Origin: Bacilli bacterium
GTDB lineage: Bacteria; Bacillota_I; Bacilli_A; RF39; UBA660
Direction of reading: 5' to 3'
Length of the DNA stretch: 64,000 nucleotides
Assembly (NCBI GenBank): GCA_045541255.1
Contig: JAZQIU010000045.1
Span: 2,497 to 66,496, forward strand
Numbering within the stretch: the stretch's first letter is position 1; every line of letters begins with the position of its first letter. Below the pieces are notes generated by a model that was not told the origin of the DNA, did no database searches, and saw nothing but the letters and a program-made list of their open reading frames with translations. A program made the position numbers and the translations under genes. Positions 1,238 to 48,252 of this stretch are shown here, piece by piece.

Positions 1238-1783
1238 ATGATAAAGACTTTTACTGGGCCAATGTTTAGTGGAAAAACAACAGCATTATTAACAACTTAC
1301 TTTAATATGTGGAATAAAGCTAATATAATGTGTTTTAAACCTAAAATTAATACTAGAGATGATGGTATAAAATCAAAAAATATAAAGGATAATGTAAGTG
1401 CTATAGAGATAAATGATTTATGTGAAATAAAAGAACATATAAAGAAAAATACTAAAACGATATTTATTGATGAAGCAAATTTTTTAGTAGGTGATGTAAA
1501 CGTTTTAGTTGAATTAAGTGTTGATAAAAATATAGATATTTATGTTTGTGGATTAAATATGACTGGTGAACAAAAACCTTTTGGCATAATGCCTCAAATA
1601 CTTGCTGTAAGTGATTATATTGATATAAAGAAGGGATATTGTACTGATTGTAATAGGGAAGCAGGATTTAGCTATTATATAGGTGGAAAAGATAAAGATA
1701 TTGTAGTTGGTGATAGTGGATATATTTCTTTATGCGAGGCGTGTTTACGTAAGAGAAGAAAGGGACAAAAAAATGAGAAGTAA
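1238..1783 (+). CDS. tdk: thymidine kinase
   Basis: P-loop 'GPMFSGKTT' and C-terminal Cys pairs 'CTDC...CEAC' typical of type II thymidine kinase. Confidence 0.9.
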   Translation: MIKTFTGPMFSGKTTALLTTYFNMWNKANIMCFKPKINTRDDGIKSKNIKDNVSAIEINDLCEIKEHIKKNTKTIFIDEANFLVGDVNVLVELSVDKNIDIYVCGLNMTGEQKPFGIMPQILAVSDYIDIKKGYCTDCNREAGFSYYIGGKDKDIVVGDSGYISLCEACLRKRRKGQKNEK

Positions 1784-3563
1784 TAAAAAGGGTTATACTT
1801 TAATTGAAATAATAGTTTGTATATTGCTTATTGTTTTAATAGGAACTATTTCTATAATTGTTGTAAAAAAGAATGAAAAAACTAATGATGATTTAAAAGT
1901 TGAGTATGTTGAAAAGATAAAATTGGATACAGCGGTTTATGTTGAGAAAAATAAAGAAAGTACATTATTTTCTGGTTTGAATTCCCCTGAAGATTATACT
2001 TATATTCAATTAAAAGATTTAATTAATTTAGGTATATTAGATGAAAATTTATATAATCCTATTTTTAATAATAGTAGTAAAAATCTTGGACATAGTTTAG
2101 TAAGGGTGTTTTTGGATAGTGAATCAAATATTGATATAGAATATCCTACAGTATATGAAGAAAAAATTAGAGAAGAGCTTCCTGAAGATACTCCACCAGA
2201 AGAAATAGAAGATAAGGTTAAGGATGAAATAGAAAATACTTTAAAAAATGTTTTTATCCATATTAGAGAAAATAATGAAAATGGTAATAAATTTATAATA
2301 CCCGATTCAAAAACAATGCTTAATGTTATTGATAGTTTAGTAAAAGATAAAACTTATAAAAGTAGTTATTATTTTTATAAAGCTTTAAAAGAAGGAGATT
2401 ATAACACTTATAATGATCCGGGGTATTATTTGGCTGATGCTGCTGGTAATATTATTAATACTACAGAAAATGATTGGTGTATAACAAAAGAAAAGATTTA
2501 TAGTGATAAAAAGAAAAAGAATTGGGATAATAAATGGAAATATACTTATGAAATATGTGAGAATAGTTCTATTTATAATGTTTATAAAAATGTAAATAGT
2601 GAAGATAATATAAGAATTGTTGAAATGGTTGATAATGATGCGCCTCTTTTATTATCAGAAAGTGATAATCGTGAATTTGTTAGTGGAGTTGATTATTTTA
2701 ATGCATTAGATAATTATTATTATGGATACTTAGATTTTTGGGCTATGTATTATTATAGTCAAGCATTTTATGTTTATGATAATTATGATGGTGCTAGTTA
2801 TGATGTGCCAGATCGTTTATCAAGTTTGAATTTTACTTATGATTTATTAACACAAGATTTATTATTAACTGATTCTAATAATAATAGTAGAATATATACA
2901 GTTGATGTTGCATTATCATATAATGAACAACCTTATGTTTATTATGATGGTCCTACTTATTTATATGAATATGATATTTATTATTCTAATGGAGAAATAT
3001 ATCCATTCTATGATTATATATATGCTTATGATTGGGATGATAATTTAGAATATACTTATTATTATTTATATGATGATTATGGAAATTATTATTATCCTTA
3101 TGATGATACATACATACCTACAGGCAATTATACTTTATCTGTAGAAGCTTGTGATACTTATTGGTATTGTGATTACCAAACTTATGAAATATATGTAGAT
3201 TATTATTACTATGAAGAACCTTGGTATGATGATTATTATGATGACTATTATGATTATGGATATGACGATTATTATTGTGGAGATGCTTGTATTATAGAGC
3301 AAATGCAGCAAAATTCTGAAGCTTGGTGGGGCGCTTCTCCAGAAGAGCAAGATAGGTTACATGAAGAGAATGAATGGTTAGCTGGCCAATTATCCGGAGA
3401 TACTTATTATACTGATGATGGATATTGGTATTATGATGATGGTTCTTATGTATATGGTGATGATTATTATAATGACTATTATGGTTACGATTATGGTTAT
3501 TATGACGATTATTATGGCTATGATGATTATTACTATGATTATGGATATGATTGTTGTTGGTAA
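1773..3563 (+). CDS. prepilin-type N-terminal cleavage/methylation-domain protein with extreme Tyr/Asp-rich C-terminal region
   Basis: Internal ATG at 1773 gives 'MRSNKKG/YTLIEIIVCILLIVLIG', a class of type IV pilin leader (G, then aromatic, E at +5, hydrophobic helix). The start overlaps the tdk stop by 11 nt. The C-terminus has runs such as 'YYDDYYDDYYDYGYDDYY'. Confidence 0.7.
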   Translation: MRSNKKGYTLIEIIVCILLIVLIGTISIIVVKKNEKTNDDLKVEYVEKIKLDTAVYVEKNKESTLFSGLNSPEDYTYIQLKDLINLGILDENLYNPIFNNSSKNLGHSLVRVFLDSESNIDIEYPTVYEEKIREELPEDTPPEEIEDKVKDEIENTLKNVFIHIRENNENGNKFIIPDSKTMLNVIDSLVKDKTYKSSYYFYKALKEGDYNTYNDPGYYLADAAGNIINTTENDWCITKEKIYSDKKKKNWDNKWKYTYEICENSSIYNVYKNVNSEDNIRIVEMVDNDAPLLLSESDNREFVSGVDYFNALDNYYYGYLDFWAMYYYSQAFYVYDNYDGASYDVPDRLSSLNFTYDLLTQDLLLTDSNNNSRIYTVDVALSYNEQPYVYYDGPTYLYEYDIYYSNGEIYPFYDYIYAYDWDDNLEYTYYYLYDDYGNYYYPYDDTYIPTGNYTLSVEACDTYWYCDYQTYEIYVDYYYYEEPWYDDYYDDYYDYGYDDYYCGDACIIEQMQQNSEAWWGASPEEQDRLHEENEWLAGQLSGDTYYTDDGYWYYDDGSYVYGDDYYNDYYGYDYGYYDDYYGYDDYYYDYGYDCCW

Positions 3564-12853: not shown

Positions 12854-12993
12854 AATGTAGTTTTTATATGAAATATAATATAAAATATTGTTGTTATTTT
12901 ATATAGATGTATGTTATTATAAATGTTGATATATTTAACATGCGTTAGTTGCACTCCTTAAAATTAAATTTTTAATTTTAAGGAGGTGAGTGT

Positions 12994-13071
12994 ATGACTA
13001 TAAGAGAGAAAACTCTATATTTCATAATACTTCTTCTATTTATTTTAGTATTTATACTATTATTTAGATAG
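12994..13071 (+). CDS. 25-aa hydrophobic peptide (candidate type I toxin)
   Basis: AAGGAGG RBS then ATG gives MTIREKTLYFIILLLFILVFILLFR. The RBS lies in the hairpin CTCCTTAAAATTAAA/TTAATTTTAAGGAG. The peptide is conserved in copy B. Confidence 0.5.
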   Translation: MTIREKTLYFIILLLFILVFILLFR

Positions 13072-13146
13072 AAAAAAAGCACACTAACGGGTTTTGGTTT
13101 AAGTTAGTGTGCACAAACCAATTTAGGAGTGTACCTAACATCCCAC
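13072..13146 (-). ncRNA. candidate antisense RNA overlapping the 3' UTR of the 25-aa ORF
   Basis: Hairpin GCACACTAAC/GTTAGTGTGC (13079-13112) is preceded on the + strand by A7, so it is an intrinsic terminator on the - strand. A TATACT -10-like hexamer sits at 13153-13158 on the - strand. The 5' end is a guess. Confidence 0.4.
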
Positions 13147-13225
13147 ATGTTAAGTATATCCTTTTTTATTTTATGCAAAATTTCTTGCTAAATACATATT
13201 ATCATATTAGTATTATTTAGTCAAT

Positions 13226-20400: not shown

Positions 20401-20500
20401 AGAAATGTATATTAATTATATTTCTTTTTTTCTTTTGAAAAAAATTGTAGAATATTGTGATATAATTATTATGAATAATTATGGTAGTGGAGGTGTTAAT

Positions 20501-22240
20501 ATGAAATTAATAAAGAATATAATTTTAATTTTTATATTAAATTTTATATTTATTTTAAATGTTAATGCTGAAACTGGTTATGTTACAGATAGTACTGGTG
20601 CTAATATGAGAGATAAACCTAGTACTAAAAATAGTAATGTTTTAATAGAAATTCCTTATAATGCTGAATTTTATATAAGTGATATAAATGCTGGGACTGG
20701 TAATGGGTGTAGTAAAACATGGTATTATGTGTATTATGGAAATAATTATGGTTATGTTTGTTCTAATTTAGTAAGAATTGTTGGAGAAACTGTTACTACT
20801 TATGGTAGACCTTGGACTAGTCCTAAAAAAGCGATAGTAGGTGGAGCTGAATATATTAGTAAAGGATATATTGCTAAGGGACAATATACTTCATATTTGA
20901 AGAAGTTTAATGTTAATCCTAATGGGTATTATCCTGTTTATAATCATCAATATATGGCTAATTTACGTGCGCCTATGAGTGAAGCAAGTACGACTTATAA
21001 TTCAATGAAAGATAATGGTTTATTAGATAATGCTTTAAATTTTGTTATACCAGAATTTACTAATATGCCTGAAACCACATATAATCAAAATATAAAAAAT
21101 ACTGAAAGACAAATTGCAGATATACAAGATGAGGCTTTTGAAATAAGTATTCAAGAATTTCATGATAGTTATAAACCTTATTTAAGATATTTACATACGA
21201 TTCATCCTAATTGGACGTTTACAGTTTTAAAAACTAATTTAGATTTTGAAGCAAGTTATTTAAGTGAAAAAGCAGTTAGTAGTATTGAAATAAGTTCTGG
21301 TTTTTGTGAACAAGACCCTTACTATGTAACTGAAAGTGGTTGGTGTATTGGGAATGAAGCATCTACTAAATTTTTCTTAGATCCTAGAAATTTCTTAAGT
21401 GAAAAATATATATTTATGTTTGAAAATTTGGGGTTTAGTGAATTGTATAATGAGTCTGTAGTTCAAAGTGTAATTAATAATACTTTTATGAGTGGTATAT
21501 CAGTTTTAGATAACCAATCATATGCTAGTATTTTTGTAGAAGCTGGTAGAAATGCAAATATATCTCCATTATATTTAGCAAGTTTAGCAAGACAAGAGAG
21601 CGGTACAAAAGAAAGTAGTACAACGAGTGGTGCCGAATTTACTTATGATGGTTATACATATAAAGGAGTATATAATTTCTTTAATATAGGTGCTAGTAGT
21701 AGTGCATCAAATCCTGCAAAGGCGGGGCTAGTATGGGCCAATGGTGGAAAAGGAGCAAATGGTGCAGTTAGCAACAATAATATAGGTAATGGTGGCAATA
21801 ATAATCCTACTAATGTAAGTAATGATTTTATATCAATGTTACAAGTGAGTAAAACAGGGGATTATTTAAAAGGATATAGTTTAGGAACAACAGTTAGTGA
21901 AATTAAATCTAAAGTTGGAACTATTGCTAATGTTGTTATAAAAGATTCTAATGGAAATATTAAAAGCGATTTAGATGCTATTGGTACTGGTTATATTATA
22001 GATATAAGTAATAGTGCTGGAAGTAATTCATATACTTATGTTATGTATGGGGATGTAAGTGGAGATGGAGAAATAAATTCAGCTGATTTACTTAAAATAA
22101 GGCAATATTTATTAGGTCAAATAAATTTAGATGGAGCTTTCAAAACTAGTGCTTATATAAGTGGAGATGGAGAAATAAATTCAGCTGATTTATTAAAGTT
22201 AAGACAACATTTATTAGGAACAAGTTTTATTAGTCAATAG
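20501..22240 (+). CDS. secreted SH3b + N-acetylglucosaminidase-like peptidoglycan hydrolase with C-terminal dockerin-like repeats
   Basis: ATG at 20501 after GGAGGTG and a signal peptide. SH3b-like 'GYVTDSTGANMRDKPS'. Glucosaminidase-like 'ISPLYLASLARQESG'. Duplicated 'SGDGEINSADLLK(I/L)RQ(Y/H)LLG'. Confidence 0.7.
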   Translation: MKLIKNIILIFILNFIFILNVNAETGYVTDSTGANMRDKPSTKNSNVLIEIPYNAEFYISDINAGTGNGCSKTWYYVYYGNNYGYVCSNLVRIVGETVTTYGRPWTSPKKAIVGGAEYISKGYIAKGQYTSYLKKFNVNPNGYYPVYNHQYMANLRAPMSEASTTYNSMKDNGLLDNALNFVIPEFTNMPETTYNQNIKNTERQIADIQDEAFEISIQEFHDSYKPYLRYLHTIHPNWTFTVLKTNLDFEASYLSEKAVSSIEISSGFCEQDPYYVTESGWCIGNEASTKFFLDPRNFLSEKYIFMFENLGFSELYNESVVQSVINNTFMSGISVLDNQSYASIFVEAGRNANISPLYLASLARQESGTKESSTTSGAEFTYDGYTYKGVYNFFNIGASSSASNPAKAGLVWANGGKGANGAVSNNNIGNGGNNNPTNVSNDFISMLQVSKTGDYLKGYSLGTTVSEIKSKVGTIANVVIKDSNGNIKSDLDAIGTGYIIDISNSAGSNSYTYVMYGDVSGDGEINSADLLKIRQYLLGQINLDGAFKTSAYISGDGEINSADLLKLRQHLLGTSFISQ

Positions 22241-28164: not shown

Positions 28165-28244
28165 TATTTGTTAAATTTTATAATTTATAATACAATGTAT
28201 TTAGCAAGAGAGCTTGCATAAAATAAAAAGGATATACTTAACAT

Positions 28245-28319
28245 TTGCGGTGTTAGGTACACTCCTAATATTTGGTTGTGCACACTAACTTAAACCAAAA
28301 CCCGTTAGTGTGCTTTTTT
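28245..28319 (+). ncRNA. candidate antisense RNA to the 3' UTR of the 28320..28397 ORF
   Basis: TATACT hexamer (28233-28238), then hairpin GCACACTAAC/GTTAGTGTGC (28280-28313) followed by T6. This is an intrinsic terminator ending at the ORF stop codon. Confidence 0.4.
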
Positions 28320-28397
28320 CTATCTAAATAATAGTATAAATACTAAAATAAATAGAAGAAGTATTATGAAATAAAAAGTTTTTTCTCTAGTAGTCAT
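28320..28397 (-). CDS. 25-aa hydrophobic peptide (candidate type I toxin), paralogue of 12994..13071
   Basis: MTTREKTFYFIILLLFILVFILLFR. It differs from copy A at I3T and L8F plus one synonymous change. The hydrophobic core is identical. Confidence 0.5.
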   Translation of the reverse strand: MTTREKTFYFIILLLFILVFILLFR

Positions 28398-28515
28398 AAC
28401 CTCACCTCTTTAAAATTAATTGTAAGGAGTGCAACTAACGCATGTTAAACATATCATTGAATATGATTATATACTTGTATTTTTATACAAGTTATTTTTA
28501 TGTAATTTTACAAAT

Positions 28516-37196: not shown

Positions 37197-37221
37197 AAAG
37201 TTGTTTGTTAACAACTTTTTT
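37195..37221 (+). terminator. intrinsic terminator after infB
   Basis: AAAAGTTGTT-tgtt-AACAACTTTT followed by a T-run. Confidence 0.7.
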
Positions 37222-37230
37222 TGTATTGTT

Positions 37231-37259
37231 TTGTCAAATGATTTGAAATAAATTATAGT
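37231..37259 (+). promoter_or_regulatory. sense promoter of family-2 element copy 1
   Basis: TTGTCA (37231-37236), 17-nt spacer, TATAGT (37254-37259). Confidence 0.6.
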
Positions 37260-37336
37260 TAGTTTATAATAACTAACCGAACATTCAATTAGTTAATGCC
37301 TGCCTCATACTTGAAAGATAGAAAGAGGTTTGATAT

Positions 37337-37423
37337 ATGAGTATAAAAAGTTTCTTGATAAAAGTACTTGATAGACTTATTATCATTTTATCTTTAATCC
37401 TCCTACAAGGGTTTTGGAGATAA
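37337..37423 (+). CDS. 28-aa hydrophobic peptide (candidate type I toxin)
   Basis: AAGAGG RBS then MSIKSFLIKVLDRLIIILSLILLQGFWR. The peptide is identical in copy 2 despite two nucleotide changes, both synonymous. Confidence 0.55.
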   Translation: MSIKSFLIKVLDRLIIILSLILLQGFWR

Positions 37424-37503
37424 AAAAACGACATTAACCGATGGTTAATGTCTAACCCAATGAGGTAGACATTCAACTTGGACATTGAATGTTCTATCTT
37501 CAT
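37422..37503 (-). ncRNA. candidate antisense RNA (about 80 nt) to the 3' UTR of the 28-aa ORF
   Basis: A - strand promoter lies at 37510-37538. The - strand terminator is GACATTAACC-atc-GGTTAATGTC followed by T-rich 'GTTTTTTT', ending at the ORF stop. Confidence 0.5.
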
Positions 37504-37509
37504 AAGTTA

Positions 37510-37538
37510 ATTTTAACATATTATAAATATTGTGTCAA
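37510..37538 (-). promoter_or_regulatory. antisense promoter of family-2 element copy 1
   Basis: On the - strand: TTGACA (37538-37533), 17-nt spacer, TAAAAT (37515-37510). Confidence 0.6.
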
Positions 37539-43649: not shown

Positions 43650-46208
43650 ATGAAAAGAATAGTACTTATAGATGGTAATAATTTAATGTTTAGGAGTTTT
43701 TATGCAACTGCTTATACAGGTAATTTAATGAAAAATAGTAAAGGCTTTTATACTAATGCTTTATATGGTTTTGTTAATATGATAAATAAAATTATTGAAG
43801 AAGAAAAACCAGAGTATATGGCTGTTGCGTTTGATATAGGTAAAAATTTTAGAAAAGATATATATAGTGAATATAAAGATGGTAGAAAACCAACTCCAGA
43901 AGAATTAAAAATGCAAATGCCTGTTGCAAGAAAAATATTAGATGCTATGGGTATTAAATATTATGAAGTTGAGAATTATGAAGCAGATGATATTATTGGA
44001 ACTTTATCTTATAGAGCATTAGTTGATCCAGATTATGTTGCGACAGTAATAAGTAGCGATAAGGATTTATTACAATTAATAAATGAGCAAGTAGAAGTTA
44101 AATTATTAAAATCTAAGGATTATATAAGATATAATAAAGAAACATTTATGAATGATTATGGCTTTGATCCTATTAGAATAATAGATTTAAAAGCTTTGAT
44201 GGGTGATGCTAGCGATAATATTCCTGGAGTTAAAGGTATAGGTGAGAAGACAGCTATAAAATTAATTCAAGAATATGATACTATAGAAAATTTATATGAA
44301 AATATAGATGATATAAAAGGTAAATTAAAAGAAAAATTAGTATTAGATAAAGAAAATGCTTTCTTTTCTAAGAAGATAGCGACTATATATTTAAGTGTTC
44401 CAATAATAGATGATTTTGACGCTATGAAATATACTGGTGAAGATATAGATAAATTAACTAGTATTTTTGAAGAGTTAGAATTCTATAGTTTTATGAAAAA
44501 ATTTGTTAAAAAATCTATAGATATTAACAATAATATTGAGTATAAAACTTTAGAAAATGTTAGTGAAATAAATAAAGAAAATATTATTAGTTATTATATA
44601 GAGTGTGATAAAGTTAATTATCATTATGGTAATATTCTTGGTATGGGTTTATATGATAATAGTAATTTATACTTTGTTAAACCTGATATGGTAAATGAAG
44701 TTTTGGAATATATAAAAGATTCGGTTAAATATACTTTTGATTTAAAAAAGAATAATTGTTTAGTAGGAAAAATAATAGATAATACTATTTATGATCATAT
44801 GATAGTTGCTGATTTGTTAAATTATAATTTTAAAGAAGATTTAAGTATTCTTATGAAAAATGATGGTATCAATATTGATGAATATAGTGTGTTTTTGAAG
44901 ACACAAGAAAATTTAGAATTTAATGTTGTTAGTAAAGCAAAATATATTTATGATATTAGAGATGAATATATAAAAAAATTAAAGTTAGAAAATATGTATG
45001 ATTTATTTATTGATGTTGAAATGCCTTTAATTAGTACTTTAACTAGAATGGAATTAAATGGTATTAAAGTGGATAAAGATATATTACATAATATGGGTGA
45101 AGAATTATCTGTTAAGATAGATGAATTAAAAAATGATATTTATGCTTTTGCTGGAGAAGAATTTAATATAGCAAGTCCTAAACAATTAGGTAATATTTTA
45201 TTTGAAAAGTTGGGTTTGAAACATGGTAAAAAGATAAGAAGTGGGTATTCTACTGATAGTAAAGCATTAGAAAAAATAATGAGTGATCATCCTATAGTAC
45301 CTTTAATTGTTGAATATAGAAATTTAACTAAGATATATGGAACTTATATTGAGGGTTTATCTAATTATGTTATGGAAGATGGTAAGATACATACTATTTA
45401 TAAACAAACAATGACTAGAACTGGTAGACTTTCGAGTGTAGAGCCAAATTTACAAAATATACCAGCTAGAGATGAGTTAGGTAAAATGGTTAGACGTGCA
45501 TTTATACCAACTAATAATGTATTCTTAAGTGCAGATTATTCTCAAATAGAGTTAAGAATATTAGCGCATATAAGTGATTCTAAAGATTTGATAGATGCTT
45601 ATATTAATGGAGAAGATATTCATACTAAGGTTGCTAGTGATATATTTGCAGTTCCTAAAAGTGATGTTAGTAAAGAAATGCGTAGTGCAGCAAAAGCTGT
45701 TATATTTGGAATAGTTTATGGTATTAGTGGCTTTGGTTTGGGAGAAAATATAGGTTTAAGTGCGAAAGAAGCAAAAGTTTTTATAGAAAAATATTATGAA
45801 TTGTATCCTGGCGTAAAAAACTATATGGAAACAATCGTTCATGAAGCCTATATGGATGGTAGTGTAAGAACTTTATTTAATAGAAAAAGAGTTATAGATG
45901 AATTAAATAGTAGTAATTATATGGTAAGAATGAGTGGAGAAAGAATAGCTTTAAATACTCCTATACAAGGAACTAGTGCTGATATAATAAAAATGGCTAT
46001 GGTAAAAATAGATGAGGAATTTATTAAACGTGGAATAAAGAGTAAAATGTTATTACAAATACACGATGAATTAGTATTTGATATAGTTGAAAGTGAAAAA
46101 GAAGAAGTGACAAATTTAGTAATGAATACTATGAAAAATATAGTTAGTTTAAAAGTCCCTTTAGAAGTAAGTTGTGATTATGGTACTGATTTATATGAAA
46201 CAAAATAA
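43650..46208 (+). CDS. polA: DNA polymerase I
   Basis: 5' nuclease 'LIDGNNLMFRSFYA' and polymerase motifs 'DYSQIELRILAH', 'RSAAKAVIFGIVYG', 'LQIHDELVF'. Confidence 0.95.
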   Translation: MKRIVLIDGNNLMFRSFYATAYTGNLMKNSKGFYTNALYGFVNMINKIIEEEKPEYMAVAFDIGKNFRKDIYSEYKDGRKPTPEELKMQMPVARKILDAMGIKYYEVENYEADDIIGTLSYRALVDPDYVATVISSDKDLLQLINEQVEVKLLKSKDYIRYNKETFMNDYGFDPIRIIDLKALMGDASDNIPGVKGIGEKTAIKLIQEYDTIENLYENIDDIKGKLKEKLVLDKENAFFSKKIATIYLSVPIIDDFDAMKYTGEDIDKLTSIFEELEFYSFMKKFVKKSIDINNNIEYKTLENVSEINKENIISYYIECDKVNYHYGNILGMGLYDNSNLYFVKPDMVNEVLEYIKDSVKYTFDLKKNNCLVGKIIDNTIYDHMIVADLLNYNFKEDLSILMKNDGINIDEYSVFLKTQENLEFNVVSKAKYIYDIRDEYIKKLKLENMYDLFIDVEMPLISTLTRMELNGIKVDKDILHNMGEELSVKIDELKNDIYAFAGEEFNIASPKQLGNILFEKLGLKHGKKIRSGYSTDSKALEKIMSDHPIVPLIVEYRNLTKIYGTYIEGLSNYVMEDGKIHTIYKQTMTRTGRLSSVEPNLQNIPARDELGKMVRRAFIPTNNVFLSADYSQIELRILAHISDSKDLIDAYINGEDIHTKVASDIFAVPKSDVSKEMRSAAKAVIFGIVYGISGFGLGENIGLSAKEAKVFIEKYYELYPGVKNYMETIVHEAYMDGSVRTLFNRKRVIDELNSSNYMVRMSGERIALNTPIQGTSADIIKMAMVKIDEEFIKRGIKSKMLLQIHDELVFDIVESEKEEVTNLVMNTMKNIVSLKVPLEVSCDYGTDLYETK

Positions 46209-46233
46209 AAGATAGTTTTTTCTATCTTTTTTT
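46208..46233 (+). terminator. intrinsic terminator after polA
   Basis: AAAGATAG-tttttt-CTATCTTT followed by a T-run. Confidence 0.7.
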
Positions 46234-46241
46234 GTAATGTT

Positions 46242-46270
46242 TTGTCGAATAATTTGAAATAAATTATAGT
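46242..46270 (+). promoter_or_regulatory. sense promoter of family-2 element copy 2
   Basis: TTGTCG, 17-nt spacer, TATAGT. Confidence 0.55.
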
Positions 46271-46348
46271 TAGTTTATAATAACTAACCGAACATTCAAT
46301 TAGTTAATGCCTGCCTCTTATTTAAAAAAAAGAAAAGAGGTTTGATAA

Positions 46349-46435
46349 ATGAGTATAAAAAGTTTCTTAATAAAAGTGCTTGATAGACTTATTATCATTT
46401 TATCTTTAATCCTCCTACAAGGGTTTTGGAGATAA
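46349..46435 (+). CDS. 28-aa hydrophobic peptide (candidate type I toxin), identical to 37337..37423 product
   Basis: MSIKSFLIKVLDRLIIILSLILLQGFWR. Codon 7 is TTA vs TTG and codon 10 is GTG vs GTA; both changes are synonymous. Confidence 0.55.
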   Translation: MSIKSFLIKVLDRLIIILSLILLQGFWR

Positions 46436-46510
46436 AAAATGACATTAACCAAAGGTTAATGTCTCACCACTTGAGGTAGGCATTCAATCTTCGCAATTGA
46501 ATGTTCTACT
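46434..46510 (-). ncRNA. candidate antisense RNA, copy 2
   Basis: The - strand promoter is TTGACA (46545-46540), 17-nt spacer, TACTAT (46522-46517). The terminator is GACATTAACC-ttt-GGTTAATGTC followed by T-rich 'ATTTTTT' on the - strand. Confidence 0.5.
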
Positions 46511-46516
46511 AATTAA

Positions 46517-46545
46517 ATAGTATCAAAGAAGAGTTGTGTTGTCAA
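46517..46545 (-). promoter_or_regulatory. antisense promoter of family-2 element copy 2
   Basis: TTGACA-17-TACTAT on the - strand. The position is equivalent to copy 1 although the sequence differs. Confidence 0.55.
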
Positions 46546-46611
46546 ATCTTCTTTTTTTTGTTATAATCAATATACCTTTTAAAACTTTTATTAATTATTT
46601 TTTAGAAAGAG

Positions 46612-48252
46612 ATGAATTTTATGAATAAAATTAAGATAGTTAGTTTAGGTGGACTAAACGAAAATGGTAAAAATACTTATGTAGTTGAAATAGATGGTAA
46701 AATATTTATATTTGACTGTGGTTTAAAATATGCTAATGATACTATGTATGGTATCGATTATATAATACCTGATTATAGTTATTTAGAAAAAAATAAAGAT
46801 AATATAGTAGGGATATTTTTAACTCATGCTCATCCTGAGAATATGGGTGGTGTTAGTGATTTATGTGAATTGTTACCTGATGTAAAAGTATATTGTACTA
46901 AATATACAAAAAAATATTTAGAGTTGGATGGTTTTAAAGGTAATATTTATGAGATACAAGCTCATAAAAAGATTACTTTTGGTGATTTATCATTATTTCC
47001 TATTAGTGTAACTCATTCAGTGCCTGATGCAGTTATGTATGTAATAAATACTAAAGATGGTGCTATAGTTTATACAGGAGACTTTATTATAGATCCTTCT
47101 ATGAAAGGGAAATATAATATGGACATAGGTAAGATTGCTTATATAGGTAAACAAGGTGTTTTATGTATGATGAGTGATTCAGCTTTTTCAGAACATGATG
47201 GGCATACTAGTCCTAATCATAGACTTACAAGTTTCTTTAGAGATTGTATAAATAGAACACAAAATAGATTAATATTTACTGTTTTGCCAATACATTTATT
47301 TACAATAGAGGAAATATTTGAGGCTGCTAAAAATAGTCATAGAAAAATTGTAGTAATGGGTAAAAAGTTACAAAATGTTATTAATATGGCTATTGAAGAA
47401 GGATATTTAAGTATTGATAAAGATATATTAGGTGATTTAAGTAATATAAATGATAGTAATGTTATTTTGTTAGTTTGTGATGATAAAGAAAAACCATATG
47501 CTGCTATAGATAGAATAGTAGGAGGGTATGATAAATTCATTAAATTAAAGAGTGATGATACTATAGTTTTTGCAGAACCTAGATATGATGAAAATGAGAA
47601 AATTATAGTTAGATTAGAGAATGAAATTGCTATGTTGGGTGCTGAAACAATAAATATTCCTAAAGGTAAAGAGATATCTCAACACGCATCACGCGAAGAT
47701 TTAATGTTAATGATAGATTTATTAAAACCTAAATATTATATGCCTGTTGAAGGGGAATATAGATATATGGTTAATAATGCTAATTTAGCTAATGGTTTAG
47801 GTATAGATAGTAATAATATAATACTTAAAACCAATGGTGAAGTTGTTAAAATAGAAAATAAGAAACTTATAGAATGTTTTGATAAGATAGAAATTAACGA
47901 TGTATTAATAGATGGTAATAGTAATGATGATATAGGTGAATTAGTTATAAAAGATAGAGAAATGTTAGGAGAAAATGGGATTGTTTTAATTAGTGCTACT
48001 TTATCTAAAGAAGATAAAAAAGTATTAGTTGGACCAGAAGTAACTACAAGAGGTTTTATATATATTAAAGATAGTAAAGAAATGATAGATAATATAAAGA
48101 AGATATCTTTGGAAATTATAGAAAATAATGTTAATAATAATTATGTTGATTATAATAATATTAAGATGGAAATTAGAGATAGTTTAAGTAAATATTTTTA
48201 TAATGAAACAGAATGTAAACCTATGATTATTGCTGTTATACAAGAAGTATAG
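46612..48252 (+). CDS. rnj: ribonuclease J family protein with non-canonical metal motif
   Basis: Beta-lactamase/beta-CASP layout: 'VSLGGLNENGKN', 'SVTHSVPDA', 'YTGDF', 'MSDSAFSE'. The HxHxDH position reads 'HAHPEN'. The start could be 46621. Confidence 0.8.
   Translation: MNFMNKIKIVSLGGLNENGKNTYVVEIDGKIFIFDCGLKYANDTMYGIDYIIPDYSYLEKNKDNIVGIFLTHAHPENMGGVSDLCELLPDVKVYCTKYTKKYLELDGFKGNIYEIQAHKKITFGDLSLFPISVTHSVPDAVMYVINTKDGAIVYTGDFIIDPSMKGKYNMDIGKIAYIGKQGVLCMMSDSAFSEHDGHTSPNHRLTSFFRDCINRTQNRLIFTVLPIHLFTIEEIFEAAKNSHRKIVVMGKKLQNVINMAIEEGYLSIDKDILGDLSNINDSNVILLVCDDKEKPYAAIDRIVGGYDKFIKLKSDDTIVFAEPRYDENEKIIVRLENEIAMLGAETINIPKGKEISQHASREDLMLMIDLLKPKYYMPVEGEYRYMVNNANLANGLGIDSNNIILKTNGEVVKIENKKLIECFDKIEINDVLIDGNSNDDIGELVIKDREMLGENGIVLISATLSKEDKKVLVGPEVTTRGFIYIKDSKEMIDNIKKISLEIIENNVNNNYVDYNNIKMEIRDSLSKYFYNETECKPMIIAVIQEV

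What the first reader, a model, noticed from the sequence alone, without database searches (positions are those of the whole stretch)
46233..46545. Second copy of the family-2 module after polA: only synonymous changes in the ORF and stem-preserving changes in the hairpin
Seen: about 276 bp is collinear with 37221..37496, in the same orientation and again immediately after an intrinsic terminator of a large essential gene. Within the 87-nt ORF the two copies differ at two positions, TTG/TTA and GTA/GTG, and both are synonymous. The 5' UTR just upstream differs at many positions. The terminator hairpin stems are identical while the loop differs (gat vs aaa). The antisense promoter sequence has diverged (TACTAT vs TAAAAT -10, different spacer), but -35, spacing and position are retained. 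Inference: selection is acting on the peptide sequence, the RNA structure and antisense transcription, rather than this being a neutral repeat.
Basis: seen in the sequence. Interest (0 to 1): 0.65.

Follow-up and report, generated by a model that had tools for sequence, protein, structure and literature searches.

The report
Unannotated type I toxin–antitoxin-like module

Summary
Window 46233-46508 is 91 % identical to 37222-37496, and the differences fall in predicted loops. The ORF differs only at two synonymous sites.

- The hairpin after the ORF is a minus-strand terminator that ends a roughly 75-nt antisense RNA started by the convergent TTGACA promoter.
- The mRNA's first 28 nt pair with its last ~34 nt.
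- That 5' arm also carries the anti-Shine-Dalgarno sequence.

This is the layout of a type I toxin-antitoxin module. It is not an isolated pair. About 130 relatives occur in ~110 species-level genomes of uncultivated low-GC gut Bacilli/"Mollicutes". All keep a short hydrophobic ORF (pN/pS 0.38-0.45, no in-frame stops), and their helices co-vary. Wobble pairs place the long-range helix on the mRNA strand and the terminator hairpin on the antisense strand.

No Rfam, Pfam or NCBIfam family, protein record or paper matches. The window holds two further modules of a sister family.

Transcription and toxicity remain unshown. Verdict: a new family of a known kind, of moderate interest.

The parts
46209..46232 (+). 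AT-rich hairpin plus T-run ending polA (AAAGATAG-TTTTTT-CTATCTTT + T-run). It insulates the module from upstream transcription.
   Evidence: Read directly. Below the scanner's G+C threshold. Most relatives also have a hairpin plus T-run upstream.
46254..46281 (+). Sense promoter TTGAAA-16-TATAAT. The predicted start lies at about 46288-46290, i.e. at the first base of the 5' arm.
   Evidence: 11 of 12 consensus match. The same promoter is present in copy A and both orthologues, 8 nt before the arm. A -10 hexamer lies 7-10 nt before the arm in nearly all seeds.
46290..46317 (+). 5' arm of the long-range helix (GAACATTCAATTAGTTAATGCCTGCCTC). Its distal part GCCTC(TT) is the anti-Shine-Dalgarno sequence.
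   Evidence: 100 % identical between the copies. Pairs with 46473-46506 in the MFE fold, z -7.7. Duplex z -9.9.
46335..46340 (+). Shine-Dalgarno sequence AAGAGG, 8 nt before the ATG.
   Evidence: Sequence. Predicted to be locked by GCCUCUU in the nascent or antisense-bound RNA, and only weakly paired in the full-length RNA.
46349..46435 (+). ORF of 28 codons plus stop: MSIKSFLIKVLDRLIIILSLILLQGFWR, the candidate membrane toxin.
   Evidence: Conserved with V10F and I8L in the related MAG. Divergent homologue of the M-x-KKD-[FL]-LI peptide family.
46441..46463 (-). Intrinsic terminator of the antisense RNA: GACATTAACC-TTT-GGTTAATGTC followed by ATTTTTT on the minus strand (46440-46434).
   Evidence: Flagged only on the minus strand. 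Stems co-vary in the family. Wobble pairs lie on the minus strand.
46466..46472 (+). 3'-UTR segment ACCACTT that weakly pairs (3+3 bp) with the SD in the full-length fold.
   Evidence: Thermodynamic prediction only. This segment differs between the copies.
46473..46506 (+). 3' arm of the long-range helix (GAGGTAGGCATT...AATTGAATGTTC). It is also the main target of the antisense RNA.
   Evidence: The differences between the copies are one change in the inner helix (46480, which gives a C-A mismatch in copy A) and changes in the internal loop.
46434..46510 (-). Predicted antisense RNA (candidate antitoxin), about 75 nt: a 5' hairpin, a linker and the terminator hairpin. It overlaps only the 3' UTR of the mRNA.
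   Evidence: Bounded by the promoter and terminator. Folds into two clean hairpins, z -5.2. The transcript has not been observed.
46517..46545 (-). Antisense promoter TTGACA-17-TACTAT with a TG extension.
   Evidence: Equivalent TTGACA-17-TAnnAT promoters with TG occur in copy A and in both orthologous copies of the related MAG.
37222..37538 (+). Copy A of the same module, between infB and rbfA: 5' arm 37279-37306, ORF 37337-37423, minus-strand terminator 37430-37452, 3' arm ending at 37494, antisense promoter 37538..37510.

Best explanation
The module is a chromosomal type I toxin-antitoxin-like locus.

Sense RNA. A sigma-70-type promoter starts an mRNA of about 220 nt exactly at a 28-nt 5' arm. 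The mRNA encodes a 28-residue hydrophobic peptide, the presumed membrane-active toxin.

Antisense RNA. A convergent promoter makes an antisense RNA of about 75 nt. It ends at its own terminator just past the stop codon, so it is complementary only to the mRNA's 3' UTR. That region includes the 3' arm.

Shown by sequence and comparative analysis:
- the ORF is under purifying selection;
- the 5'-3' helix is selected on the mRNA strand;
- the hairpin after the stop codon is selected on the antisense strand;
- both promoters are conserved.

Inferred from folding models:
- In the nascent mRNA, the distal 5' arm (GCCUCUU) locks the Shine-Dalgarno sequence, so translation cannot start during transcription.
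- Once the 3' arm is made, it captures the 5' arm. This partly frees the ribosome-binding site.
- The antisense RNA resembles the 5' arm in sequence. It occupies the 3' arm and returns the 5' arm to the SD (a bsrG/SR4-like translational lock).
- The long perfect duplex is a likely RNase III substrate (txpA/RatA-like decay).

The two window copies are kept alike by gene conversion. They form a divergent branch of a large family.
For: Anatomy:
- Minus-strand terminator and convergent TG-extended promoters.
- mRNA fold z -7.7, antisense fold z -5.2.

Family:
- 21 full members by profile search and 110 further short ORFs from an arm-independent scan.
- A non-circular profile hits both window copies at E about 7e-7.

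Coding:
- 0 in-frame stops versus 111 and 20 in the other sense frames; pN/pS 0.38 and 0.45.
- Hydrophobic character is conserved at nearly every position.

Structure:
- Arm-arm duplex z -5.5 to -9.9 in all seeds and z <= -4 in 85 of 103 arm-independent members.
- Pair counts of 93.7 % and 84.1 % paired versus 24-43 % with slid partners, and 0 of 500 shuffles reaching the observed score.
- Double compensatory change in L019c.

Strand assignment:
- G-U versus A-C is 56:9 and 86:34 in the long-range helix on the + strand, and 16:41 in the hairpin after the stop codon.
- The duplex is more stable on the + strand in 16 of 22 members.

Switch model:
- SD unpaired probability is 0.38-0.61 in the full-length RNA versus <= 0.02 in the nascent or antisense-bound state, for three of the four window-type copies.

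Literature:
- 3'-overlapping antisense RNAs are the rule for Gram-positive type I systems. RatA overlaps by about 75 nt and acts through RNase III. SR4 lengthens the RBS stem (PMC4147584).
- SD/anti-SD pairs and 5'-3' long-distance interactions are the hallmarks used by T1TAdb (PMC8594479).
Against: - Neither RNA has been observed. Metatranscriptome contigs cover a relative's module only at flank-like depth and carry no strand information.
- There are no toxicity or rescue data.
- No sequence similarity to any known toxin or antitoxin family.
- The two window copies lack the U-run that follows the 3' arm in the larger subfamily, so the mRNA's 3' end is undefined.
- Their hydrophobic stretch is interrupted by D12-R13.
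- The SD-opening effect of the long-range helix is a thermodynamic prediction. It is weak or absent in L001 and in most members of the larger subfamily, where a local CCUCC/GGAGG hairpin sequesters the SD in all states.
- One strain variant truncates the peptide at codon 24.
Confidence: 0.7

Rival explanations
1. The module encodes a non-toxic small membrane protein, for example a regulator or accessory subunit of a membrane complex. Its expression is tuned by a cis-antisense RNA and by mRNA structure. It would then not be a toxin-antitoxin pair.
For: Everything shown here (ORF selection, helices, antisense signals) fits this reading equally well. The copies sit next to housekeeping genes and not on prophages or plasmids. 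The window-type peptide has charged residues inside its hydrophobic stretch.
Against: The full combination is typical of type I toxins (PMC8594479, PMC4147584) and unusual for ordinary small proteins:
- multiple SD-sequestering structures, with the start codon in a helix;
- a 5'-3' closure helix;
- a 3'-overlapping antisense RNA;
- an insulating upstream terminator;
- multi-copy, lineage-specific amplification, with four modules in 64 kb and tandem copies in relatives;
- occasional inactivated copies.
Confidence: 0.17
2. The module is a MITE-like mobile repeat. In this reading the 5' and 3' 'arms' are terminal inverted repeats recognised by a transposase, and the ORF and promoters are incidental.
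For: The 11-13 bp perfect and roughly 28 bp imperfect inverted repeats bound an element of about 217 bp. The module is multi-copy and found in varied intergenic sites. Inverted repeats would also co-vary. One relative lies next to a DDE transposase gene.
Against: - Homology between the copies runs about 57-90 bp beyond the 5' repeat, through the promoter.
- No target-site duplication is visible at the arm ends.
- Wobble pairs are strongly biased to G-U on the mRNA strand (56:9 and 86:34). This is expected for an RNA helix and not for DNA repeats.
- The ORF is under purifying selection with a correctly spaced SD.
- The copies are stable at orthologous sites across species.
- The module is absent from viral contigs, plasmids and phages.
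Confidence: 0.03
3. The pattern is a neutral recent duplication kept uniform by gene conversion. In this reading the 'synonymous only' and 'stems identical' observations are chance in a pair of young copies.
For: Only two ORF differences exist (nominal p about 0.04). Paralogues within each genome are more alike than positional orthologues, which shows gene conversion.
Against: Both copies persist at the same two sites in a related species with about 10 % divergence. Differences concentrate in loops. About 130 relatives keep the ORF and the structure.
Confidence: 0.03
4. The module is a cis-regulatory leader or attenuator for the downstream genes (rbfA-truB; RNase J), with the small ORF acting as a leader peptide.
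For: The window copies have no clear sense terminator. Their promoter could therefore read into rbfA or the RNase J gene.
Against: In relatives the downstream gene is often on the opposite strand or unrelated. The larger subfamily ends in helix plus U-run. The convergent promoter and terminator have no role in an attenuator.
Confidence: 0.05

Closest known systems
txpA/RatA and bsrG/SR4 (also bsrE/SR5, yonT/SR6) type I toxin-antitoxin systems of Bacillus subtilis
   Same: - Convergent toxin mRNA and antisense RNA that overlap only at their 3' ends, by about 75-120 nt.
- The antisense RNA does not touch the RBS or the ORF.
- The toxin is a small hydrophobic peptide.
- The predicted long-distance effect of antisense binding on RBS sequestration parallels SR4, which lengthens the stem from 4 to 8 bp.
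- RNase III decay of the duplex is plausible (PMC4147584).
   Different: - The peptides are unrelated in sequence and shorter (22-30 versus 38-59 residues).
- No Rfam, Pfam or NCBIfam match: RatA scores 19.5 bits against a threshold of 49.
- The mRNA here is closed by a 25-30 bp 5'-3' helix whose 3' strand is itself the antisense target.
- The loci sit among housekeeping genes of small genomes, not in prophage or skin elements.
par (Fst RNA I / RNA II) of Enterococcus faecalis pAD1 and the Fst/Ldr superfamily
   Same: - Convergent transcripts.
- A toxin of about 30 residues with a single transmembrane helix.
- Translation held off by 5' structure that sequesters the SD.
- A helix formed by the 5' end with a downstream segment that stabilises the toxin RNA (from my own knowledge of the par literature; not tested here).
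   Different: In par, the two RNAs share a bidirectional terminator and first interact through direct repeats near their 5' ends. Here the antisense RNA has its own terminator, upstream of the mRNA's 3' arm, and no such repeats are present. No Fst-family profile matches the peptides.
hok/Sok (plasmid R1) and aapA1/IsoA1 (Helicobacter pylori)
   Same: The full-length toxin mRNA is closed by a 5'-3' long-distance interaction. Successive or metastable structures keep the SD sequestered during transcription (PMC8594479, PMC6733600).
   Different: - In those systems the antisense RNA binds the 5' or translation-initiation region of a 3'-processed mRNA, and the 5'-3' helix keeps the mRNA inert.
- Here the antisense RNA targets the 3' arm, and the helix is predicted to open the SD in the window-type copies.
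- The best peptide hit to HokA is not significant (E 0.31, 11 bits versus a cutoff of 89).

Membership tests
Type I toxin-antitoxin system (general class) | Small (<60 aa) hydrophobic peptide ORF with its own ribosome-binding site | tested here: met
   The 28-codon ORF has AAGAGG 8 nt upstream. The family ORFs are 20-37 codons, with KKD followed by a transmembrane-like stretch, pN/pS 0.38-0.45 and no in-frame stops.
Type I toxin-antitoxin system (general class) | Gene for an antisense RNA complementary to the toxin mRNA (promoter and terminator on the opposite strand) | tested here: met
   TG-extended TTGACA-17-TAnnAT promoters and a minus-strand intrinsic terminator are found in both copies and both orthologues. 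The hairpin's wobble pairs lie on the minus strand.
Type I toxin-antitoxin system (general class) | Both RNAs are actually expressed | tested here: inconclusive
   No RNA run holds the window copies usefully. Metatranscriptome contigs cover a relative's module at flank-like depth without strand information.
Type I toxin-antitoxin system (general class) | Toxin mRNA carries SD-sequestering structure and/or a 5'-3' long-distance interaction | tested here: met
   The criteria are those stated in PMC8594479.
Type I toxin-antitoxin system (general class) | Peptide is toxic when overproduced, and the antisense RNA neutralises it | not testable with these tools
   This requires expression experiments.
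Known toxin families (Fst/Ldr, TxpA/BsrG, Hok, Ibs, TisB and others) and known antitoxin RNAs (RatA, SR4 and others) | Significant match to the family's protein profile or covariance model | tested here: not met
   Pfam and NCBIfam give no significant hit for 8 peptide variants. Rfam gives nothing at gathering score in the window or in 10 loci, and the best hits are chance-level.
MITE / small non-autonomous transposable element | The unit of repetition is bounded by the terminal inverted repeats and flanked by target-site duplications | tested here: not met
   Homology extends through the promoter beyond the 5' repeat. There are no flanking direct repeats. The wobble-pair bias is specific to an RNA strand.

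The most novel reading that the evidence does not exclude
The antisense RNA may work as a molecular mimic of the mRNA's own 5' arm.

1. In the free full-length mRNA, the 3' arm captures the 5' arm. This removes the anti-SD sequence from the ribosome-binding site, so the 5'-3' helix is an ON state. That is the opposite of hok and aapA1.
2. The antitoxin turns translation off by competing for the 3' arm. This hands the anti-SD back to the SD, without the antisense RNA ever touching the translation-initiation region.

If this is right, the family is a distinct regulatory variant of type I systems. It is amplified in reduced genomes of uncultivated gut Bacilli/Mollicutes-like bacteria, where such systems are essentially unexplored.
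Probability: 0.25. Interest if true: 0.65.

Novelty: new member of a known kind. Interest (0 to 1): 0.55.

Why it matters
[quoted passage not shown] They are systematically missed by annotation because the peptides fall below gene-calling length limits.

Here a single architecture recurs in about 110 species-level genomes of uncultivated, small-genome gut bacteria from rumen, rabbit, chicken, mouse and human samples. Several copies occur per genome. None of eight representative peptides looked up is present in a 15-billion-protein collection.

The family offers three things:
- a compact, alignable set of natural variants for studying how 5'-3' mRNA closure, anti-SD switching and 3'-overlapping antisense RNAs combine;
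- a marker for annotating these genomes;
- a warning that these repeats break metagenome assemblies.

For the finding itself, the result turns an unexplained repeat into an interpretable gene module with testable predictions.

Tried and rejected
Searches that found nothing:
- An exact 28-mer of the 5' leader in the genome collection gave no hit.
- Searches of viral contigs, plasmids and phages gave nothing real. The single viral hit, L013, is a chance palindrome.
- Full-text search for the peptide and RNA motifs gave only chance matches in unrelated papers.

Chance or false matches set aside:
- Metagenome hits L005, L007, L009 and L011 are chance palindromes.
- L031, L035 and L106 are false positives of the SD/N-terminus pattern.

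Expression evidence:
- RNA-seq gave no usable run for the window.
- For a relative there were only unstranded contigs, whose ends coincide with repeat junctions.

Technical problems:
- The first RNAalifold run on the arm-independent alignment recovered only the terminator hairpin. My extraction window (ATG-52) cut off most of the outer 5' arm. I therefore supplied the structure by hand.
- The profile built from 98 arm-independent members does not detect the finding's two copies. Their homology rests on the smaller seed profile, on the shared arm sequences and on the shared M-S-x-K-x-F-L-I start.

Readings rejected:
- The near-open reading frame on the opposite strand (ORFs 46318-46452 and 37285-37503 on the minus strand) is not a gene. 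It is a by-product of T at codon position 2 in hydrophobic codons.

Not attempted:
- Structure prediction, because the peptide is under 30 residues.
- The costly protein-homology searches. Low-complexity 27-mers would give uninterpretable hits, and the exact look-ups were negative.

Full report
**1. The observation**

The segment 46233-46508 aligns with 37222-37496 at 91.0 % identity over 277 columns, in the same orientation. A 48-nt probe from the ORF matches only these two places in the window, with none expected by chance.

Copy B follows DNA polymerase I and precedes an RNase J gene. Copy A follows IF-2 and precedes rbfA.

- The 28-codon ORFs (46349-46435 and 37337-37423) encode the same peptide, MSIKSFLIKVLDRLIIILSLILLQGFWR.
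- They differ only by TTA/TTG and GTG/GTA.
- The leader before the SD is 65 % identical.
- The hairpin stems are identical and the loops differ (AAA versus GAT).
- Two convergent promoters share TTGACA, a 17-nt spacer and a TG extension, and differ otherwise.

Across the module the differences concentrate in predicted loops and linkers. The 5' arm and both hairpin stems are 100 % identical.

**2.

- The hairpin at 46441-46463 is preceded by an A-run and is not followed by a T-run on the + strand. The scanner calls it an intrinsic terminator only on the minus strand, in both copies.
- Together with the TTGACA-17-TACTAT promoter at 46545..46517, it delimits an antisense RNA of about 75 nt. This RNA overlaps only the 3' UTR of the ORF's mRNA. 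It folds into two clean hairpins (z -5.2).
- On the sense strand, a TTGAAA-16-TATAAT promoter ends 8 nt before position 46290.
- From 46290, the first 28 nt of the RNA (GAACAUUCAAUUAGUUAAUGCCUGCCUC) pair with 46473-46506 in a long-range helix. This helix dominates the fold (z -7.7).
- The distal part of that 5' arm, GCCUCUU, is also complementary to the Shine-Dalgarno region AAGAGGU.

**3. It is a family, not a pair**

- A related MAG carries both copies at the same two sites, with conservative substitutions V10F and I8L.
- I fished with only the outermost 11 bp of each arm. This returned divergent members in metagenomes and in uncultivated "Bacilli" MAGs. They have a different peptide (for example MSKKDFLIFVLLFIILTQIALLFVILK) and a different terminator stem, in the same layout. 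A profile search then gave 21 full members.
- Because that sample was selected on the arm sequence, I ran a second scan built only from the SD and the peptide N-terminus.
- Of 115 matches in that scan, 110 are 20-37 codon ORFs, nearly all of the type M-x-KKD-[FL]-L-I followed by a hydrophobic stretch. They come from about 110 species-representative genomes.
- Those genomes are labelled uncultured Bacilli, Tenericutes, Mollicutes, Mycoplasma sp. CAG:611, Clostridium sp. CAG:524, Anaeroplasmatales, Erysipelotrichaceae, Candidatus Coprosoma and others.
- A profile made from the larger subfamily alone hits both window copies over their full length at E about 7e-7. The finding's copies are therefore a divergent branch.
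- The window also holds two modules of a sister family at about 12928-13163 (+) and 28230-28455 (-), encoding peptides MTIREKTLYFIILLLFILVFILLFR and MTTREKTFYF....
- A generic architecture scan finds exactly these four modules in the 64 kb.

**4. Selection on the peptide**

- In the 20 aligned seeds the ORF frame has no stop codon. The other two sense frames have 111 and 20.
- Pooled pN/pS is 0.38. It is 0.45 over the 19 codons not fixed by the search pattern, in 57 distinct 27-codon sequences. Nearly every position after KKD remains hydrophobic.
- The two synonymous differences between the window copies are on their own only nominally significant (about 0.04).
- Paralogues within each genome are more alike than positional orthologues. 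This points to gene conversion.
- Rare inactivated copies exist: CAA->TAA at codon 24 in one strain contig, and a degenerate copy in L101.

**5. Selection on RNA structure, and on which strand**

- The 5'-arm/3'-arm duplex is far stronger than shuffled controls in every seed (z -5.5 to -9.9). This includes the sister family, whose arm sequence is entirely different.
- It also holds in 85 of 103 arm-independent members (z <= -4), which have many different arm sequences.
- Formal pair counts give 93.7 % paired cells on the 20-seed alignment and 84.1 % on 65 arm-independent members. Slid partners give 24-43 %.
- There are 15 and 21 pairs changed on both sides, and no shuffle out of 500 reaches the observed score.
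- The long-range helix carries G-U rather than A-C on the mRNA strand (56:9 and 86:34). The hairpin after the stop codon shows the reverse (16:41), meaning its wobble pairs are G-U on the minus strand.
- The duplex is also more stable on the + strand in 16 of 22 members.
- These counts are not phylogenetically independent. Even so, they argue that both strands are transcribed into structured RNAs. They also argue against DNA-level terminal inverted repeats of a MITE.

**6. Mechanism**

Shown:
- gene signals for two convergent RNAs;
- a selected ORF;
- a selected 5'-3' helix on the mRNA;
- a selected terminator on the antisense strand.

Inferred from folding:
- In the nascent mRNA, and when the 3' UTR is occupied, GCCUCUU pairs with AAGAGGU over 7 bp. 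SD unpaired probability is then <= 0.02.
- In the free full-length mRNA, the 3' arm takes the 5' arm. The SD is then held only by a 3+3 bp contact (0.38-0.61 unpaired in three of the four window-type copies).
- The start codon sits in a helix throughout.
- The antisense RNA shares the 5'-arm sequence, so it would compete for the 3' arm and restore the SD lock. This is a long-distance effect like that of SR4 on bsrG. The roughly 75-bp perfect duplex would also invite RNase III cleavage, as for txpA/RatA (PMC4147584).
- In the larger subfamily a local CCUCC/GGAGG hairpin sequesters the SD in all modelled states, and the 3' arm is followed directly by a U-run. The switch may therefore be specific to the window-type branch, or may be an artefact of the model.

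**7. What is known**

- Rfam, Pfam and NCBIfam give no significant match.
- None of eight peptide variants exists in the 15-billion-protein collection.
- No plasmid, phage or viral contig carries the module.
- No paper in the library holds the motifs.
- The architecture matches the hallmarks used to define type I systems (PMC8594479). It also matches the rule that Gram-positive antitoxin RNAs overlap the toxin mRNA's 3' end (PMC4147584).
- I therefore file it as a new family of a known kind, pending expression and toxicity tests.

**8. Limits**

- No direct evidence exists for either transcript or for the peptide.
- The available RNA-derived contigs are unstranded and uninformative.
- The sense transcript's 3' end in the window copies is undefined.
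- E-values and binomial p-values on related sequences are nominal.

Noticed in passing
window 12928-13163 (+) and 28230-28455 (-): There are two modules of a sister family with the same architecture. The peptides are MTIREKTLYFIILLLFILVFILLFR and MTTREKTFYFIILLLFILVFILLFR. The arms have a different sequence (GATATATTTAACATGCGTTAGTTGCACTCCT paired with AGGAGTGTACCTAACATCCCACATGTTAAGTATATC plus a T-run), followed by a minus-strand terminator. These modules are closer to the bulk of the family than the finding's copies are (E about 1e-17).
   Followed up: partly
L019 3220-3433 (third tandem copy; contig CALVRI010000001.1): This is a hybrid member. It has the family-2-type leader with a double compensatory change in the outer helix (GAATGTTC...GAACATTC), and a peptide whose C-terminal half matches the window's sister family (MTKRDNYFFCIILLLFILVFTLLFK). 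It links the two families and suggests modular recombination.
   Followed up: partly
window 37337-37423 vs 46349-46435, compared with L001 and L002: Concerted evolution is evident. The two paralogues within each genome share derived states in the leader and ORF, and are more alike than the copies at the same site in the other species. The flanks, including the antisense promoters, are site-specific.
   Followed up: partly
L003 positions 20-237 (Logan contig of SRR28204439; copy-A site): This strain variant has CAA->TAA at codon 24, which truncates the peptide to 23 residues. It may be an inactivated or attenuated allele.
   Followed up: no
larger subfamily, about 10-35 nt downstream of the 3' arm (e.g. 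L019 2735-2760, L053 6112-6130): A further small hairpin lies between the U-run and the antisense -10 hexamer. It co-varies: ATGCAAG/CTTGCAT, ATGAAG/CTTCAT, ATGAGA/TCTCAT, ATGCAG/CTGCAT. It would be a 5' stem-loop on a longer antisense RNA of about 110 nt. The window copies lack it.
   Followed up: no
window 46612-48252 (+): The gene immediately downstream of copy B encodes RNase J, a major RNA-decay enzyme in Firmicutes. The sense promoter of the module has no clear terminator before it. This is probably coincidental.
   Followed up: no
window 20405-22240 (+), repeats at 22053-22218: A 611-residue protein has a C-terminal type I dockerin domain (Pfam E 2.6e-12). This suggests a cellulosome-like or cohesin-dockerin assembly in this small-genome, 25.5 % GC rumen bacterium.
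   Followed up: partly
window 1707-3563 (+), repeats at 3048-3550: A 618-residue ORF has a Tyr/Asp/Gly-rich tandem-repeat C-terminal region (YDDYYG-like units). It has no Pfam match.
   Followed up: no
L046, L054, L056, L070, L077: Family members lie on contigs binned into MAGs labelled Muribaculaceae (Bacteroidota). These contigs have 23-32 % GC, like all other members, so they are most likely mis-binned rather than evidence of a wider host range.
   Followed up: partly
window 46200-46600 in runs X1, X2, X9: Metagenome unitigs break at the conserved core of the module, and their loose ends switch between copy-A and copy-B flanks. The repeat fragments assemblies of this organism.
   Followed up: no
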